From a bacterium (GTDB lineage Bacteria > Bacteroidota > Ignavibacteria > Kapaibacteriales > UBA2268), in assembly GCA_037127915.1 (NCBI GenBank), contig JBAXXL010000020.1:1822-65821 (forward strand): a stretch of 64,000 nucleotides of DNA. Direction: 5' to 3'. The notes under the pieces were generated by a model. The model saw only the letters and a list, made by a program, of their open reading frames with translations. It did no database searches and was not told the DNA's origin. This document shows, piece after piece, positions 14,243-17,817 of the stretch. The position numbers were made by a program, and so were the translations under genes. Position 1 is the stretch's first letter; the number at the start of each line of letters is the position of its first letter.

Positions 14243-15367
14243 ATGAAAAATGAAGGAAATAGAGCCTTAACCGGAATGCTATCAGATGTGATATCTGACG
14301 GTAGGAGAATTCTTGACCGCGGTTATTGCGGGCACGAGCATCTGTTGGAACACAATATCATCAACATGAATGGAAGAATTTATGACCCAACCGTTGGACA
14401 ATTCATGCAAGCAGACAATTACGTCCAAACACCAGAAGATTATATCGGCTACAACCGATATTCATATTGCAGACATAACCCGTTTAAGTATGTTGATCCG
14501 AGTGGAGAGCAATATATAGCCGGTTCTGGTGGTGGCGGTGTTATGGCCGCTATGGGAGCATATTACTTAGCCATGGAAGCACAGCGATCCACTGCAATTG
14601 GTGAGGCACTTGGCGAGGCTATGAGAAATTGGAACCCTAATGCCAGAATAGAAGAAGCAGATGCCGCACGAAACAGAGCTGAACGAAGTGGCGTCAGTGC
14701 CGGTAGTTCTGGTGGTGGCGGCGCAACACCACCTGCCGAAAACAAAGACACAAAAGCGGATGGGGATACGGAAACAAATGGAGTGAGTGGTGAACAGGAA
14801 ACTGGAACAGATGGAACAGGAAAAGTGCAAGGACCTGCAGAAAAAGGGAAAGTGGCACCGTGGGAAATGTTACCTCCCGATGAAATGCAAGAATTAAAAG
14901 ATGGACCAGCACGTGAAACAGAATTTGATGGTAATGAGGAAGTTCAAATTGGAGATGCTACCCCAGTGAATAGAGATAATAAGTACGCTTTTTGGGATAA
15001 TCTCTTTGCGTATAATTGTCATTCTTATGCTTGGCATAATGGGAATGGTGATCTCAGTGATTCACATAATAGTTTTTGGTATATGAGATGGGATGGTTAT
15101 CCATTGGATGATGCTCGAGAAATGGCGAGACCATTACAGGGTAGTGAAGGTGTACAAGTAGGTGATAGAATTATTTATTTTGATGGTGAAGGTAATCCAC
15201 TTCACTCCGCAATCGTATCCGGAGTGAATGAATACGGTTTAGCAACAAGGGTGACAAGTAAATGGGGATCCGATCCTTTATATAATCACCACCCACTTGA
15301 CCCTGATGTTGTCCCAGGTTATGGAACATATTTGAAATATTATAGAATGAATAATGGAGGTAGATAA
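14243..15367 (+). CDS. Orphan Rhs C-terminal toxin cassette: the end of the RHS repeat-associated core (…GRIYDPTVGQF…YCRHNPFKYVDPSGE), a Gly/acidic linker, and a papain-like (CHAP/NlpC-P60-like) C-terminal toxin domain
   Basis: The N-terminus reads RGYCGHEHLLEHNIINMNGRIYDPTVGQFMQADN...YNRYSYCRHNPFKYVDPSGE and matches the conserved 3' end of Rhs/YD core domains (DPxG demarcation). The C-terminal region carries Cys (YNCHSYAW) and His (GNPLHSAIVSG), with GDRIIYFDG spaced as in CHAP/NlpC-P60 amidases. No upstream Rhs body is present, and the ORF starts mid-core. Confidence 0.7.
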   Translation: MKNEGNRALTGMLSDVISDGRRILDRGYCGHEHLLEHNIINMNGRIYDPTVGQFMQADNYVQTPEDYIGYNRYSYCRHNPFKYVDPSGEQYIAGSGGGGVMAAMGAYYLAMEAQRSTAIGEALGEAMRNWNPNARIEEADAARNRAERSGVSAGSSGGGGATPPAENKDTKADGDTETNGVSGEQETGTDGTGKVQGPAEKGKVAPWEMLPPDEMQELKDGPARETEFDGNEEVQIGDATPVNRDNKYAFWDNLFAYNCHSYAWHNGNGDLSDSHNSFWYMRWDGYPLDDAREMARPLQGSEGVQVGDRIIYFDGEGNPLHSAIVSGVNEYGLATRVTSKWGSDPLYNHHPLDPDVVPGYGTYLKYYRMNNGGR

Positions 15368-15993
15368 TGAAACTAAATATGATTTTTATTGTTCTTTTGG
15401 TGATTTGTATTTTTAATACCAGCTGTACACAAAACAGATTTACCAATAAAGATACTGAATATAAGCAATTGATTGACAGTTTACGTTGTGCTTGGACACT
15501 CTCTATATGTAATAAAACTGGGGTTGGGATTAAATGTAGATATGAACGCTTAGACCAATGGAACAAGAGTATAGAAGAATATAAAAATGACAGTACTGCA
15601 TTAAAAAAAGCAATTAAGAGTTTCTATGCCAAAGACTCCACTTTAATAAAATACTTAAAAGGTTTCAAGAAAGTAAAAAGAAATTTCCCTAATTTTGAAC
15701 ATTTTAGCAACAGAAATTTTTTACTTGAATCTGATAATCTACCATTATTTAACATAATTGATTTTTACCATCAAAAAAATAATGCATATTTGGATTTGAT
15801 CCTTAACTATTATTTAAACACAGACCACACAAGTATTAAATTGCTTCTTAATGTTCACAAGTATATGCTTACTGAAGATTTATATAACAGAATCGAAAAA
15901 ATCTTCGAGAAATATGGTTACGCAGATAAAGAAAAAATTCGCGTAGCAATATTGGAAGATTTTGGTAGTTTGATAGCACTTGAAGGAATGTAA
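15367..15993 (+). CDS. Putative immunity lipoprotein, paralogue 1 of 3 (208 aa)
   Basis: Start codon overlaps the toxin stop (TAATG). Signal peptide with a lipobox-like IFNTSC. Unknown Cys-containing family. Tandem near-identical paralogues follow. Confidence 0.6.
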   Translation: MKLNMIFIVLLVICIFNTSCTQNRFTNKDTEYKQLIDSLRCAWTLSICNKTGVGIKCRYERLDQWNKSIEEYKNDSTALKKAIKSFYAKDSTLIKYLKGFKKVKRNFPNFEHFSNRNFLLESDNLPLFNIIDFYHQKNNAYLDLILNYYLNTDHTSIKLLLNVHKYMLTEDLYNRIEKIFEKYGYADKEKIRVAILEDFGSLIALEGM

Positions 15994-16072
15994 TAAAAAA
16001 AGTAGCCGCTGAATATATGTAGGCGGTTACTTTTATTATATTAAATTTTATAATATAATGCAATTAAATGAA

Positions 16073-16100
16073 CATATTACATATTACATATTACATATTA
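16073..16100. repeat. Heptanucleotide microsatellite (catatta)x4 immediately upstream of immunity paralogue 2
   Basis: catattacatattacatattacatatta. Only one unit is present at the equivalent site upstream of paralogue 3 (16825-16831). Confidence 0.6.
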
Positions 16101-16124
16101 CAGAATGAATAATGGAGGTAGATA

Positions 16125-16751
16125 ATGAAAAAAGATATAATTTATCTTGTTATTTTGGTGATTTGTATATTTAATACAAGCTGTACCCAAAACCGATATA
16201 CCAATAAAGACACAGAATATAAGCAATTGATTGACAGTTTACGATGTGCTTGGACCCTCTCTATCTGTCACAAAGTCAGTGCAGGAACGGAATGCAGATA
16301 TGAAGGCTTGGATATGTGGAATAAGAGTATGGAAGTATATATAAATGACAGCACAGCATTAAAAAAGGCAATTAAGAGTTTCTATGCCAATGACTCTAAT
16401 TTGATAAAATACTTGAAAAGTTTCAAAAAAGTCAAGAAGCGTATTCCAAATTTTGAACATTTTAGTAACAGAAATTTTTTACTTGAATCTGATAATCTAC
16501 CATTATTTAATATAATTGATTTTTACCATCAAAAAAATAATGCATATTTGGATTTAATCCTTAACTATTATTTAAACACAGACCACACAAACATTAAATT
16601 GCTTCTTAATGTTCACAAGTATATGCTTACTGAAGATTTATATAACAGAATCGAAAAAATCTTCGAGAAATATGGTTACGCAGATAAAGAAAAAATTCGC
16701 GTAGCAATATTGGAAGATTTTGGTAGTTTGATAGCACTTGAAGGGATGTAA
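16125..16751 (+). CDS. Putative immunity lipoprotein, paralogue 2 (208 aa)
   Basis: Preceded by a remnant of the toxin 3' end (agaatgaataatggaggtagataATG, encoding RMNNGGR*). About 90% identical to paralogue 1, with differences clustered in the CxKxxxGxxCRYExLDxWNKS segment. Followed by the hairpin gtagccgc..gcggctac and a T-tract. Confidence 0.6.
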   Translation: MKKDIIYLVILVICIFNTSCTQNRYTNKDTEYKQLIDSLRCAWTLSICHKVSAGTECRYEGLDMWNKSMEVYINDSTALKKAIKSFYANDSNLIKYLKSFKKVKKRIPNFEHFSNRNFLLESDNLPLFNIIDFYHQKNNAYLDLILNYYLNTDHTNIKLLLNVHKYMLTEDLYNRIEKIFEKYGYADKEKIRVAILEDFGSLIALEGM

Positions 16752-16859
16752 AAAACAGTAGCCGCTGAATATATGTATGCGGCTACTTTTATTTTATAAA
16801 ATCTTATTATATTATGCAATTATATGAACATATTATAGAATGAATAATGGAGGTAGATA

Positions 16860-17513
16860 ATGAAAATAAATATGATTTTTCTTGTTCTTATGTTGCTTTG
16901 TGGTTTTATTACAAGTTGTTCTCAAAATAATTATGCCATTAAAAATCCTGAGTATAAGCAATTGATTGACACCTTACGTTATGCTTACACTCTGAATATA
17001 TGTTATAAATCACATAGAAGTAAAGAGGAATCCACCATTTGTGATTATGAAAATTTAAATAGATGGAATAAAAGTATCGATGAATATAGAAATGATAGTA
17101 TAGCATTAAAAAATGCAATAAAGAGTTTCTATTCCAAGGACTCAAATTTGATAAAATACTTGAAAAGTTTCAAAAAAGTCAAGAAGCGTATTCCAAATTT
17201 TGATTATTTCAGCAACATCAATCTAATATTTTATAGCGGGGATATTAATGTAATTATCGATTTATCTAAATTTTATTCAAAAAAAAATAATGCATATTTG
17301 GATTTAATACTAAACTATTACGTAAACACAGATCAAACAAGAATCAAGTTGCTTCTAAATTGTTATGTTATAAAAGATAGCAGGATATCTGCTGAAGATT
17401 TATACGGGCGATTAGATAAAATCTTTGAAAAATATGGCTACGAAGATAAAGAAAAAATTCGCGTAGCAATATTGGAAGATTTTGGCTCCTGTATAACTCT
17501 TGATGGAATGTAA
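16860..17513 (+). CDS. Putative immunity lipoprotein, paralogue 3 (217 aa, more divergent)
   Basis: Same RMNNGGR* remnant upstream. Lipobox FITSC. Shares exact DNA stretches with paralogue 2 (ttgataaaatacttgaaaagtttcaaaaaagtcaagaagcgtattccaaattttga). Confidence 0.6.
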   Translation: MKINMIFLVLMLLCGFITSCSQNNYAIKNPEYKQLIDTLRYAYTLNICYKSHRSKEESTICDYENLNRWNKSIDEYRNDSIALKNAIKSFYSKDSNLIKYLKSFKKVKKRIPNFDYFSNINLIFYSGDINVIIDLSKFYSKKNNAYLDLILNYYVNTDQTRIKLLLNCYVIKDSRISAEDLYGRLDKIFEKYGYEDKEKIRVAILEDFGSCITLDGM

Positions 17514-17703
17514 GATCATTGTTTTTCTCCCCCCGTCACACCAGTGGCGGGGCTTGGGAAAAAGGAAAAAACTATGAAAACTAAACTAAAACTTTTTATT
17601 ATGGCTCGGACGGTCAGAGGGTAATAATCGGATGCCATCAGATGAAACATCTGACGGCAGGCTTTGCTTTAGGGCAACCACAAGAGTTGCCCCTACAAAA
17701 GAC

Positions 17704-17728
17704 GGACAGGTCGCGACCTGTCCCTACG
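17704..17728. repeat. Palindromic repeat family A copy plus the adjacent ccaatattgcatccctaacgggatga block (17737-17765), forming the right flank of the toxin island
   Basis: ggacaggtcgcgacctgtccctacg. A degenerate remnant of the Rhs core end (ggatgccatcagatgaaacatctgacggcagg, compare 14268-14300) lies at 17629-17660. Confidence 0.6.
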
Positions 17729-17817
17729 ATTATTTCCATTTTTAACCAATATTGCATCCCTAACGGGATGAAAAAAAAATGTTCGATACTTTCACAAGTG
17801 TCGGACATTTTGATAAA

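What the first reader, a model, noticed from the sequence alone, without database searches (positions are those of the whole stretch)
14243..17770. Orphan Rhs C-terminal toxin cassette with three tandem immunity-like lipoprotein genes, flanked by direct repeats
The ORF 14243-15367 begins in the middle of the conserved Rhs core terminus (…MNGRIYDPTVGQF…RHNPFKYVDPSGE) and has no Rhs body upstream. It carries a C-terminal domain with Cys (NCHSYAW), His (NPLHSAIV) and GDRIIYFDG spacing, reminiscent of CHAP/NlpC-P60 amidase effectors. Its stop overlaps the start of the first of three paralogous lipoprotein genes (TAATG), and each later copy is preceded by a fossil of the toxin's last codons (…RMNNGGR*). 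The island is bracketed by direct copies of element A (13844, reverse-complemented; 17704) and by the block ccaatattgcatcccta(a/c)(a/g)gggat (14119-14145 and 17739-17765). A remnant of the Rhs core end lies at 17629-17660. This looks like a displaced polymorphic-toxin tip and immunity cassette store, possibly exchangeable by recombination at the flanking repeats, sitting in a region otherwise full of T9SS cargo genes. The toxin tip family and the immunity family appear uncharacterised.
Basis: partly seen in the sequence, partly recalled or inferred. Interest (0 to 1): 0.8.

Follow-up and report, generated by a model that had tools for sequence, protein, structure and literature searches.

The report
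Orphan Rhs toxin tip with immunity genes
This is a stranded tip of an Rhs bacterial warfare toxin, predicted to cut cell wall, followed by three copies of its antidote gene; it is a known kind of locus with uncharacterised toxin and antidote families, and the antidote genes look like the part kept by selection.

Summary
ORF 14243-15367 carries the last ~65 residues of an Rhs core (TIGR03696, 50.6 bits, E 2e-13) and no Rhs shell. No Rhs body lies anywhere in the 64 kb window.

Three tandem exported, probably lipoprotein, paralogs follow. They are under purifying selection (dN/dS 0.15-0.33) and show gene-conversion mosaics. A homologous toxin plus immunity pair occurs in another metagenome, and four related contigs keep only the immunity gene plus the toxin's last codons.

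Corrections:
- The "Rhs remnant" at 17632-17661 copies the non-Rhs leader (codons 12-21), not the Rhs core.
- Element A is a palindromic, inverted, interspersed repeat.
- The flanking blocks also occur at 8.7-9.4 kb, so they are not specific to this island.

Verdict: an ordinary orphan polymorphic-toxin and immunity module. It is a new member of a known kind and is probably kept mainly for immunity.

The parts
13840..13870 (.). Element A, upstream copy. It is a palindrome (GGACAGGTCGTGACCTGTCC) with a T-run and is inverted relative to 17697-17727.
   Evidence: (I1)
14116..14157 (+). Block B (ttttctaccaatattgcatccctaaagggat). It is a small hairpin repeat module, also found at 9164-9213 and 17738-17779.
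   Evidence: D7; D12, D19
14158..14213 (+). Block C (cttttggctatttcagacattttgtttaatttagaa). It is conserved upstream of the cassette or immunity gene in L003/L004, L005 and L006. It contains TTTG-N19-TAATTTAG, which resembles a Bacteroidota promoter; the promoter role is an inference.
14214..14305 (+). Non-Rhs leader: 29 nt upstream plus the ATG at 14243 and codons 1-21 (MKNEGNRALTGMLSDVISDGR). It is 78-80% identical to L001 8378-8468 and L003 853-983. Homology breaks at about 14305 in every comparison.
14243..15367 (+). Orphan Rhs-CT ORF of 374 aa. NCBI names it an RHS repeat-associated core domain-containing protein (MEI6090479.1).
14306..14509 (+). Rhs core tail, residues 22-89 (ILDRGYCGHEHL...PFKYVDPSGE), including the DPxG cleavage-type motif at 14495-14509.
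14510..14932 (+). Variable linker, residues 90-230. It has a Gly-rich hydrophobic segment followed by low-complexity acidic, Thr and Gly sequence. It cannot be aligned with the L001 homolog (dN 1.1).
14933..15364 (+). Toxin domain, residues 231-374, with an NlpC/P60-CHAP-like papain fold. Invariant residues are N258, C259 (15017-15019), G307, D308, H321 (15203-15205), K340, G342 and P351.
15367..15993 (+). Immunity paralog 1 (208 aa). It has an N-terminal signal sequence with Cys20 and conserved cysteines.
16002..16030 (+). GC-rich hairpin (GTAGCCGC...GCGGTTAC) followed by TTTTATT after paralog 1. A twin follows paralog 2 at about 16758-16790.
   Evidence: D6, I16
16088..16125 (+). Fossil of the toxin's 3' end (…YRMNNGGR*), including GGAGG, directly before paralog 2.
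   Evidence: D1
16125..16751 (+). Immunity paralog 2 (208 aa, 88% identical to paralog 1). Its 3' half is nearly identical to paralog 1 (dS 0.04-0.12 against 0.9-1.4 in the 5' half).
16823..16860 (+). Fossil of the toxin's 3' end directly before paralog 3.
   Evidence: D1
16860..17513 (+). Immunity paralog 3 (217 aa, 62-64% identical to paralog 1).
17531..17563 (+). Conserved 3' hairpin of the cassette (CCCCGTCACACCAGTGGCGGGGCTTGGGAAAAA). It is unique in the window and occupies the same position in L001 and L003/L004.
17625..17661 (+). Remnant of the leader (codons about 10-21). It is not an Rhs core remnant.
   Evidence: (D10)
17697..17727 (.). Element A, downstream copy. On the minus strand it is a terminator-like hairpin behind the PBP2 gene.
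17738..17779 (+). Block B, downstream copy. It is also present behind PBP2 in the related contig L010.

Best explanation
This is a displaced (orphan) Rhs C-terminal toxin and immunity module.

The ORF joins four pieces:
- a 21-codon non-Rhs leader that supplies an ATG;
- the last ~65 residues of an Rhs core, with the DPxG processing motif;
- a variable linker;
- a cysteine peptidase or amidase domain of the NlpC/P60-CHAP type, with C259, H321 and a GDRIIY motif.

I infer that, when carried by a full-length Rhs protein, this domain cuts peptide bonds in the peptidoglycan of a neighbouring cell's periplasm. The three downstream paralogs are exported, probably lipid-anchored, immunity proteins that would bind and block such toxins in the periplasm.

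The ORF lacks the Rhs shell and any delivery domain, so I infer that it cannot be delivered in its present form. What selection maintains here is chiefly the immunity function. The antidote gene has been amplified three-fold, diversified and reshuffled by gene conversion. This would protect against related toxins fired by neighbours.

The intact toxin tip is either a recent leftover or a reserve. It could be re-armed by homologous recombination in the ~200-nt core-coding stretch, if a matching full-length rhs exists elsewhere in the genome.

Shown: the domain identities, the fold, the recurrence of the toxin-immunity pairing, the selection on the paralogs, and toxin loss with immunity retention in relatives. 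Inferred: peptidoglycan as the substrate, periplasmic neutralisation, and non-delivery.
For: Rhs core tail and missing shell:
- TIGR03696 scores 50.6 bits (E 2e-13) on residues 26-88.
- There are no RHS repeats and no Rhs body in the window.

Toxin family and fold:
- The family has 891 representatives. It sits at the C-terminus of long Rhs proteins carrying RHS_repeat, DUF6531 or DUF6443.
- Of 39 members, 20 hit CHAP, 19 hit DUF7689 and 7 hit Amidase_6.
- Invariant residues are N-C, G-D and H.
- The AF2 model has pLDDT 90.6 and pTM 0.86.

Immunity proteins:
- All have an N-terminal hydrophobic signal with Cys20 and conserved cysteines.
- The gene after a full-length family member in L009 is also a lipoprotein-type protein of about 200 aa.
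- A homologous toxin followed by a homologous immunity gene, with a 4-nt overlap, occurs in L001/L002.
- The paralogs show dN/dS 0.15-0.33 and mosaic dS.

Selection on the toxin:
- Against L001, the core has dN 0.09 with synonymous sites saturated, and the toxin domain has dN 0.35 against dS about 2.

Toxin loss with immunity retention:
- L003/L004 fuse the leader to the last ~15 toxin codons directly before the immunity gene.
- L005 and L006 keep blocks B and C, the toxin tail and the immunity gene only.

Precedent:
- Orphan rhs-CT/rhsI modules and their re-arming by recombination are established (PMC3150448 and PMC3967940, titles and abstracts; PMC7043789).
Against: - No full-length rhs partner was found. 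The best core match in 5.8 billion proteins is 75% identical over 60 aa. Both scans of one genome per species found nothing. Only 64 kb of a 99 kb contig of an incomplete MAG was visible.
- The window has no T6SS or other delivery genes.
- The ORF is fully intact, has its own ATG and keeps every invariant residue. A purely silent relic need not do so.
- The window's own domain scores below Pfam thresholds (DUF7689 17.5-19.7 bits against a cut-off of 22.6) and does not itself hit CHAP.
- The lipobox is atypical (F-N-T-S-C).
- The immunity model failed (pLDDT 40), so binding and localisation rest on sequence features alone.
Confidence: 0.7

Rival explanations
1. The truncated ORF is expressed on its own from the conserved upstream block and leader ATG. 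It would have a present function without an Rhs shell. Two versions are possible: an internal toxin-antitoxin-like module, as shown for Salmonella orphan Rhs toxins, or a protein released or loaded by another route.
For: - The ORF has an in-frame ATG leader.
- The upstream block C and the leader are conserved at 78-80% in other metagenomes.
- The ORF is intact with all invariant residues.
- The truncated core and the toxin are under purifying selection against L001, which has the same truncation point.
- Translational coupling to the immunity gene (TAATG) is kept even in the 32-codon leftover ORF of L003.
- Salmonella orphan Rhs toxins are transcribed from internal promoters and act as type II TA modules (PMC7043789).
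Against: - The toxin has no signal peptide and no T9SS C-terminal sorting domain, while its immunity proteins are exported. A cytoplasmic copy would not meet either its presumed substrate or its antidote.
- Related lineages lost the toxin repeatedly but kept the immunity gene. That argues the toxin is dispensable.
- No expression data could be obtained.
- Block C also precedes unrelated genes (L003 before hicB; window 9093), so it is not specific to the cassette.
- The window and L001 may simply share one ancestral truncation.
Confidence: 0.15
2. The locus is a mobile, integron-like or rAID-like defence cassette. It would be captured or exchanged by site-specific recombination at its conserved ends (block B/C plus leader on the left, the CCCCGTCACACCAGTGGCGGGG hairpin on the right) or at the flanking repeats.
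For: - The same 5' block and leader and the same 3' hairpin bound the module in three unrelated genomic contexts. These are: the window, between a T9SS cargo gene and PBP2; L001, between Bro-N and RCC1-like genes; and L003, between acylphosphatase and hicAB.
- Homology breaks at the same leader end (about 14305) in L001, in L003 and in the window's own remnant.
- The immunity genes are 25-30% GC against about 37-45% in the flanks, as in rAID clusters (10.1101/471110).
- A Logan contig identical to the window stops exactly at the leader remnant.
Against: - No recombinase, integrase or transposase lies within about 10 kb on either side.
- Blocks A, B and C are generic interspersed repeats of this lineage.
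- The small hairpin at the leader end is not conserved in L001 or L003.
- The repeated intergenic sequences between the immunity genes are explained by simple tandem duplication.
- The loci available are few and may share ancestry.
Confidence: 0.1
3. The C-terminal domain is not a peptidoglycan hydrolase. It would be a papain-fold protease, deamidase or transglutaminase acting on a protein target.
For: - The N-C...H...D pattern resembles the Tox-PL1 signature listed in PMC3482391.
- The window's own domain does not reach any Pfam threshold.
Against: - Family members hit CHAP and Amidase_6, and no Tox-PL or deamidase family appears.
- The G-D-[RKIV]-[IV]-x-Y ... H-[ST]-[AG] signature is the classical NlpC/P60 pattern (own knowledge).
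- The immunity partners are exported.
Confidence: 0.15

Closest known systems
Orphan rhs-CT/rhsI modules of Enterobacteria (Poole et al. 2011, PMC3150448; Koskiniemi et al. 2014, PMC3967940; Starsta et al. 2020, PMC7043789)
   Same: Both have a fragment of the conserved core-coding sequence, a polymorphic C-terminal toxin and a cognate immunity gene, without the Rhs shell or a delivery part.
   Different: - This module does not lie downstream of a full-length rhs. None is present in 64 kb.
- It has acquired a foreign leader with its own ATG.
- The immunity gene is triplicated.
- The toxin is predicted to act in the periplasm rather than the cytoplasm.
- The host is an unclassified bacterium with T9SS cargo genes, not a proteobacterium.
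T6SS peptidoglycan amidase effectors Tae1-4 with periplasmic Tai immunity proteins (Tse1 3vpi, Tae3-Tai3 4hz9)
   Same: Both use the papain or NlpC/P60 fold with a Cys-His pair. Both are predicted to attack the cell wall and to be neutralised by an exported immunity protein.
   Different: - This domain is carried as an Rhs tip, not as a small stand-alone effector.
- No T6SS genes are seen here.
Tox-NLPC/P60 and other papain-fold tips of polymorphic toxins (Zhang et al. 2012, PMC3482391); Pfam DUF7689 and CHAP
   Same: The same class is listed there: a papain-like peptidase tip with C, H and D residues on RHS-repeat proteins of Bacteroidetes.
   Different: This sub-family sits between DUF7689 and CHAP. 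The window copy scores below both thresholds, and no member has been tested experimentally as far as the searched literature shows.
Orphan immunity arrays: rAID-1/AID of gut Bacteroidales (10.1101/471110; PMC12247911), Vibrio cholerae arrays (PMC5361080), tandem T7SS immunity paralogs reshaped by recombination (PMC9484751)
   Same: - All are co-oriented, low-GC immunity genes kept without a usable toxin.
- Toxin remnants lie in front of the immunity genes.
- The paralogs diversify and recombine.
   Different: - There is no XerD-like recombinase here.
- There are only three genes, all from one family.
- An intact toxin tip is still attached.

Membership tests
Rhs / YD-repeat toxins | Rhs-associated core domain (TIGR03696) ending in a DPxG-type motif | tested here: met
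   The ORF scores 50.6 bits against a cut-off of 32.5 (E 2.1e-13), with residues 26-88 matching profile positions 17-75 of 76. VDPSGE lies at residues 84-89.
Rhs / YD-repeat toxins | RHS/YD repeat shell and an N-terminal delivery or plug region | tested here: not met
   The ORF has no RHS_repeat or YD-shell hit. A stop lies directly upstream. tblastn with full-length Rhs proteins finds only the core tail and the toxin domain in the window.
Orphan rhs-CT/rhsI module | Core fragment plus CT toxin plus adjacent cognate immunity gene | tested here: met
   The pairing recurs in L001/L002.
Orphan rhs-CT/rhsI module | Location downstream of a full-length rhs that shares the core sequence (the recombination partner) | tested here: not met
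   None is present in the 64 kb window. No near-identical core was found in the protein collection (best 75%) or in the genome scans.
NlpC/P60-CHAP papain-like clan | Papain-like alpha+beta fold with Cys at a helix N-terminus and His on a beta-strand | tested here: met
   [not shown]
NlpC/P60-CHAP papain-like clan | Significant match to a clan profile (CHAP PF05257, NLPC_P60, Amidase_6) | tested here: inconclusive
   Of 39 family members, 20 hit CHAP (best E 2.8e-6) and 7 hit Amidase_6. The window copy itself hits neither.
NlpC/P60-CHAP papain-like clan | Peptidoglycan peptide-bond hydrolysis | not testable with these tools
   This needs an enzyme assay on sacculi or muropeptides.
Pfam DUF7689 (PF24738) | Score at or above the gathering threshold (22.6 bits) | tested here: not met
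   The window copy scores 17.5 bits as the whole ORF and 19.7 bits as the domain alone. Relatives P0001 and P0025 do reach it, so the window copy is a divergent relative rather than a scored member.
rAID-1 (recombinase-associated acquired interbacterial defence) | [quoted passage not shown] | tested here: not met
   The neighbours are T9SS cargo genes, PBP2, Sua5/YrdC, cydB, engB and deoxyhypusine synthase. The definition is taken from 10.1101/471110.
rAID-1 (recombinase-associated acquired interbacterial defence) | Two or more co-oriented short genes with GC of 41% or less and repetitive intergenic sequences | tested here: met
   There are three co-oriented genes at 25-30% GC. The repeated intergenic sequence (D6/D16) is explained by tandem duplication.
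T6SS Tae/Tai effector-immunity pairs | Sequence membership in Tae1-4, and linkage to T6SS genes | tested here: not met
   Only fold-level similarity was found. No PDB sequence match beyond chance hits to tau was found. No T6SS genes were found among the window ORFs that were scanned.
Bacterial lipoprotein (immunity proteins) | Signal peptide ending in a lipobox Cys | tested here: inconclusive
   The hydrophobic N-terminus and an invariant S19-C20 are present in 6 close members. Position -3 is Asn, which is atypical. The L001 homolog aligns its Cys one position off. No signal-peptide predictor was available.

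The most novel reading that the evidence does not exclude
The module may be a self-contained portable unit: a promoter-like block, a leader ATG, a truncated Rhs core tail, the toxin, immunity genes and a conserved 3' hairpin. It would move between unrelated chromosomal sites without a linked recombinase and would be translated as a shell-less Rhs tip. Purifying selection on the 65-residue core tail in the orphan state would then mean that the tail has a function of its own, for example processing, or docking or loading onto a delivery protein made elsewhere.
Probability: 0.12. Interest if true: 0.6.

Novelty: new member of a known kind. Interest (0 to 1): 0.33.

Why it matters
- It gives a concrete, testable toxin-immunity pair for a large uncharacterised branch of the NlpC/P60-CHAP clan. 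That branch has about 900 cluster representatives and overlaps DUF7689, and Rhs proteins of T9SS-bearing bacteria use it as a warhead.
- It adds a small new family of exported immunity proteins with no Pfam or NCBIfam match.
- It shows, in an uncultured lineage, the familiar pattern of toxin loss with immunity retention, amplification and gene conversion.
- It does not change how orphan polymorphic-toxin modules are understood.

Tried and rejected
Searches that found nothing:
- Two scans of one genome per species, one with the whole ORF and one with a 25-nt leader pattern.
- Two metagenome-contig scans, one with the leader pattern and one with the immunity alignment. That collection evidently lacks the JGI samples that hold L001-L006.
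- Rfam on the whole window and on 13600-14300. The only hit is a tRNA at 54088.
- PADLOC defence models.
- A literature search for DUF7689.

Analyses that failed or were uninformative:
- The AF2 model of immunity paralog 1 from 6 sequences has pLDDT 40, so no fold search was run on it.
- The profile search against PDB sequences returned only spurious tau hits through an SKxGS..HxP motif.
- The afdb50 library was unavailable.
- hhalign of the immunity family against the lipoprotein after the full-length Rhs in L009 gave probability 8.7%, so common ancestry cannot be claimed.

Ideas rejected or left unsupported:
- A conserved recombination hairpin at the leader end. It folds in the two window copies (z -2.6 and -2.9) but not in L001 or L003.
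- Statistical support for promoters. The sigma-70 scan found 19 sites against 22 expected. The Bacteroidota TTTG-N17-21-TAnnTTTG pattern found 4 against 3.6 expected. The promoter role of block C therefore rests only on its conservation.
- An empty-site test. Related contigs L010 and L011 end 80-186 nt beyond PBP2, before the cassette position, so it could not be done.
- Taxonomy. The sources name the organism only as 'bacterium'.

Full report
**1. What is in the sequence**

The region holds four co-oriented ORFs:
- 14243-15367 (374 aa)
- 15367-15993 (208 aa)
- 16125-16751 (208 aa)
- 16860-17513 (217 aa)

The first stop overlaps the next start as TAATG. An in-frame stop lies directly before the 14243 ATG.

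The upstream neighbour is a minus-strand gene (11116-13677) next to T9SS cargo genes. The downstream neighbour is the minus-strand PBP2 gene (17818-19653). Further out lie Sua5/YrdC, cydB, engB, deoxyhypusine synthase, ribosomal protein S7, EF-G and EF-Tu. The module therefore sits in ordinary chromosomal context. No recombinase or T6SS gene was found among the ORFs scanned.

**2. The ORF is an Rhs tip without an Rhs body**

- Residues 26-88 match TIGR03696 (Rhs-associated core) at 50.6 bits against a cut-off of 32.5, E 2.1e-13.
- The closest relatives of this stretch are Bacteroidota-type Rhs core ends with the pattern ...RGYTGHEHL..INMNGR.YDP..G.F...D..VQ.P....NRYSYC.NNP.KY.DPSGE. One comes from Viscerimonas tarda.
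- tblastn with these proteins and with full-length Rhs proteins finds only nt 14291-14518 and the toxin domain in the whole window.
- Rhs homology begins at ILDRGY (nt 14306). The first 21 codons (MKNEGNRALTGMLSDVISDGR) are not Rhs-derived.

**3. The toxin tip**

- A profile built from the window domain and its two word-index hits was searched against 1.84 billion cluster representatives. It found 891 relatives at E ≤ 1e-3 and 186 at E ≤ 1e-10.
- Many of these sit at the extreme C-terminus of proteins of 900-2500 aa that carry RHS_repeat, DUF6531 or DUF6443. The domain is therefore a genuine polymorphic-toxin warhead.
- In a 39-sequence alignment the invariant residues are N258, C259, G307, D308, H321, K340, G342 and P351 in ORF numbering.
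- Scanned one by one, 20 of 39 members hit Pfam CHAP (best E 2.8e-6), 19 hit DUF7689 (best E 2e-7) and 7 hit Amidase_6.
- The window copy itself reaches only 17.5-19.7 bits on DUF7689, below the cut-off of 22.6.
- AlphaFold2 on this alignment gives pLDDT 90.6 and pTM 0.86. The Cys opens a helix and the His lies on a β-strand.
- Foldseek was too insensitive here, and the PDB sequence search gave only chance tau hits.
- The GDRIIY...HSAIV pattern is the classical NlpC/P60 signature (own knowledge).
- Papain-fold NlpC/P60 tips on RHS proteins of Bacteroidetes were catalogued in 2012 (PMC3482391).

**4. The immunity genes**

- The three paralogs have no Pfam, NCBIfam or PADLOC match.
- Only three relatives outside this MAG were found among 5.8 billion proteins. 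A more distant homolog (37% identity) lies in L001.
- All carry an N-terminal hydrophobic segment. The six close members have an invariant Ser-Cys at positions 19-20 and further invariant cysteines. This fits exported, probably lipid-anchored proteins, although the lipobox is atypical.
- Pairing with the toxin is conserved. In L001/L002 a 56%-identical toxin is followed, with a 4-nt overlap, by the homologous gene.
- A full-length Rhs of the same toxin family (L009) is followed by an unrelated-looking lipoprotein of about 200 aa. hhalign gives probability 8.7%, which is inconclusive.
- Exported immunity proteins are what a periplasm-acting toxin requires (own knowledge of the Tae/Tai and Ssp/Rap systems).
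- The AF2 model of the immunity protein failed (pLDDT 40).

**5. Evolutionary behaviour**

Tandem amplification and selection:
- The tandem unit of about 750 nt begins about 37 nt inside the toxin's 3' end. Each later copy is therefore preceded by ...YRMNNGGR*, which includes a GGAGG.
- All three paralogs are under purifying selection, with dN/dS 0.15, 0.28 and 0.33.
- Divergence is mosaic. Paralogs 1 and 2 show dS 0.9-1.4 in codons 25-120 but 0.04-0.12 in codons 120-208. This indicates gene conversion between tandem copies, as described for T7SS immunity arrays (PMC9484751, title and abstract).
- The immunity genes are 25-30% GC. The toxin is 40-49% GC and the flanks are about 37-45%.
- Against L001, the truncated core has dN 0.09 with synonymous sites saturated, and the toxin domain has dN 0.35 against dS about 2. 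Both were therefore constrained as proteins for most of their divergence.

Toxin loss with immunity retention in four related contigs:
- L003/L004 have a 32-codon ORF that fuses the leader directly to the last ~15 toxin codons, still overlapping the immunity start.
- L005 and L006 have blocks B and C, about 50 nt of toxin tail and the immunity gene.

Immunity is therefore the part that selection keeps.

**6. The flanking repeats**

- Element A (GGACAGGTCGYGACCTGTCC) is a palindrome. The two flanking copies are inverted relative to each other, and a third copy lies at 9375. Both flanking copies score as terminator-like hairpins, and the downstream one faces the end of PBP2.
- Block B has a third copy at 9179. 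The whole stretch 13655-14157 duplicates 8726-9212. Block B also follows PBP2 in the related contig L010.
- These are interspersed hairpin-module repeats of this lineage. They also populate L003, L005 and L006.
- The 30-nt match at 17632-17661 copies leader codons 12-21, not Rhs core.

Three features are specific to the cassette:
- Block C plus the leader on the left is 78-80% identical in L001 and L003.
- The hairpin CCCCGTCACACCAGTGGCGGGGCTTGGGAAAAA on the right is unique in the window and occupies the same place in L001 and L003.
- Homology breaks at the leader end (about 14305) in every comparison.

In L001 the leader is fused to an inserted AlbA_2/HATPase_c_4 gene. In L007 the same ILDRGY-initiated core fragment is fused in frame to a vapC-like 5' end.

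These facts leave open that the module is portable. However, no recombinase is nearby, the leader-end hairpin is not conserved, and the few loci available may share ancestry.

**7. Mechanism**

Most likely (0.7): this is an orphan Rhs tip encoding an NlpC/P60-type cell-wall hydrolase, with three periplasmic immunity paralogs. Without a shell or delivery domain the ORF should not be deliverable. The locus would serve mainly as defence against related toxins, and the intact tip would be a leftover or a recombinational reserve.

This matches the established picture of orphan rhs-CT/rhsI modules (PMC3150448, PMC3967940).

Rivals:
- Stand-alone expression (0.15). Salmonella orphan Rhs toxins are expressed internally and act as toxin-antitoxin modules (PMC7043789). 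Here, however, the toxin lacks a signal peptide while its antidote is exported.
- An integron-like or rAID-like mobile cassette (0.1). The defining recombinase is absent (10.1101/471110).
- A target other than peptidoglycan (0.15).

**8. Verdict**

Three claims do not hold:
- that the flanking repeats bracket an exchangeable island;
- that a core remnant lies downstream;
- that the toxin family is obscure.

NCBI already labels the ORF as an RHS repeat-associated core domain protein. This is a new member of a known kind and of moderate-to-low interest. Its main value is as a testable toxin-immunity pair for an uncharacterised DUF7689/CHAP-like warhead family.

Noticed in passing
window 9375-9394, 9443-9475, 6200-6232: Palindromic repeats lie in frame inside coding sequence. 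Element A reads VGTGRDLS within the T9SS C-terminal sorting domain of ORF 9291-11114(-), which still matches Por_Secre_tail to its end. A doubled CCTTCGGAAGG palindrome reads PSEGFEPSEG.
   Followed up: partly
window 8726-9212 and 13655-14157; L003 1717-1963; L005 300-520; L006 460-580: There is a composite intergenic repeat built of small hairpin modules (GTGCCGTAGGCAC, GTCCCATCGGGAC, GTACCTAAAGGCAC, ATCCCTANNGGGAT) with inverted ends (aatatcggtagaaaa / ttttctaccaatatt). It looks like a MITE or REP element, is shared across several metagenomes, and has no Rfam match.
   Followed up: partly
window 20324-21349; L010 2297-2536; L011 2474-3499: A lone cytochrome bd subunit II gene, with no subunit I next to it, lies between engB and yrdC in the window and in L011. 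It is absent from the otherwise syntenic related contig L010.
   Followed up: no
L001 8378-9816: The cassette leader (MKNERNSKDIGILSDITSGG) is fused in frame to a 466-aa AlbA_2 plus HATPase_c_4 gene inserted ahead of the Rhs core fragment. A second partial leader start (KNERN) follows at 9797.
   Followed up: partly
L007 1072-1529: A decayed Rhs core fragment starts at the same ILDRGY boundary. It is fused in frame to what looks like the first ~20 codons of a vapC gene, directly behind vapB.
   Followed up: no
L011 6191 (= window 17632): A Logan contig identical to the window ends exactly at the inner edge of the leader remnant. This may hint at strain variation at the cassette boundary.
   Followed up: no
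window 1-8100: A run of paralogous Fib_succ_major/TIG genes contains 7-9 internal repeat copies spaced about 850-1000 nt apart.
   Followed up: no
window 51808-51967: Two tandem 80-nt copies (91% identical) each contain a small hairpin (CACCCGTTCCGGGTT). They lie near a tRNA at 54088-54160.
   Followed up: no
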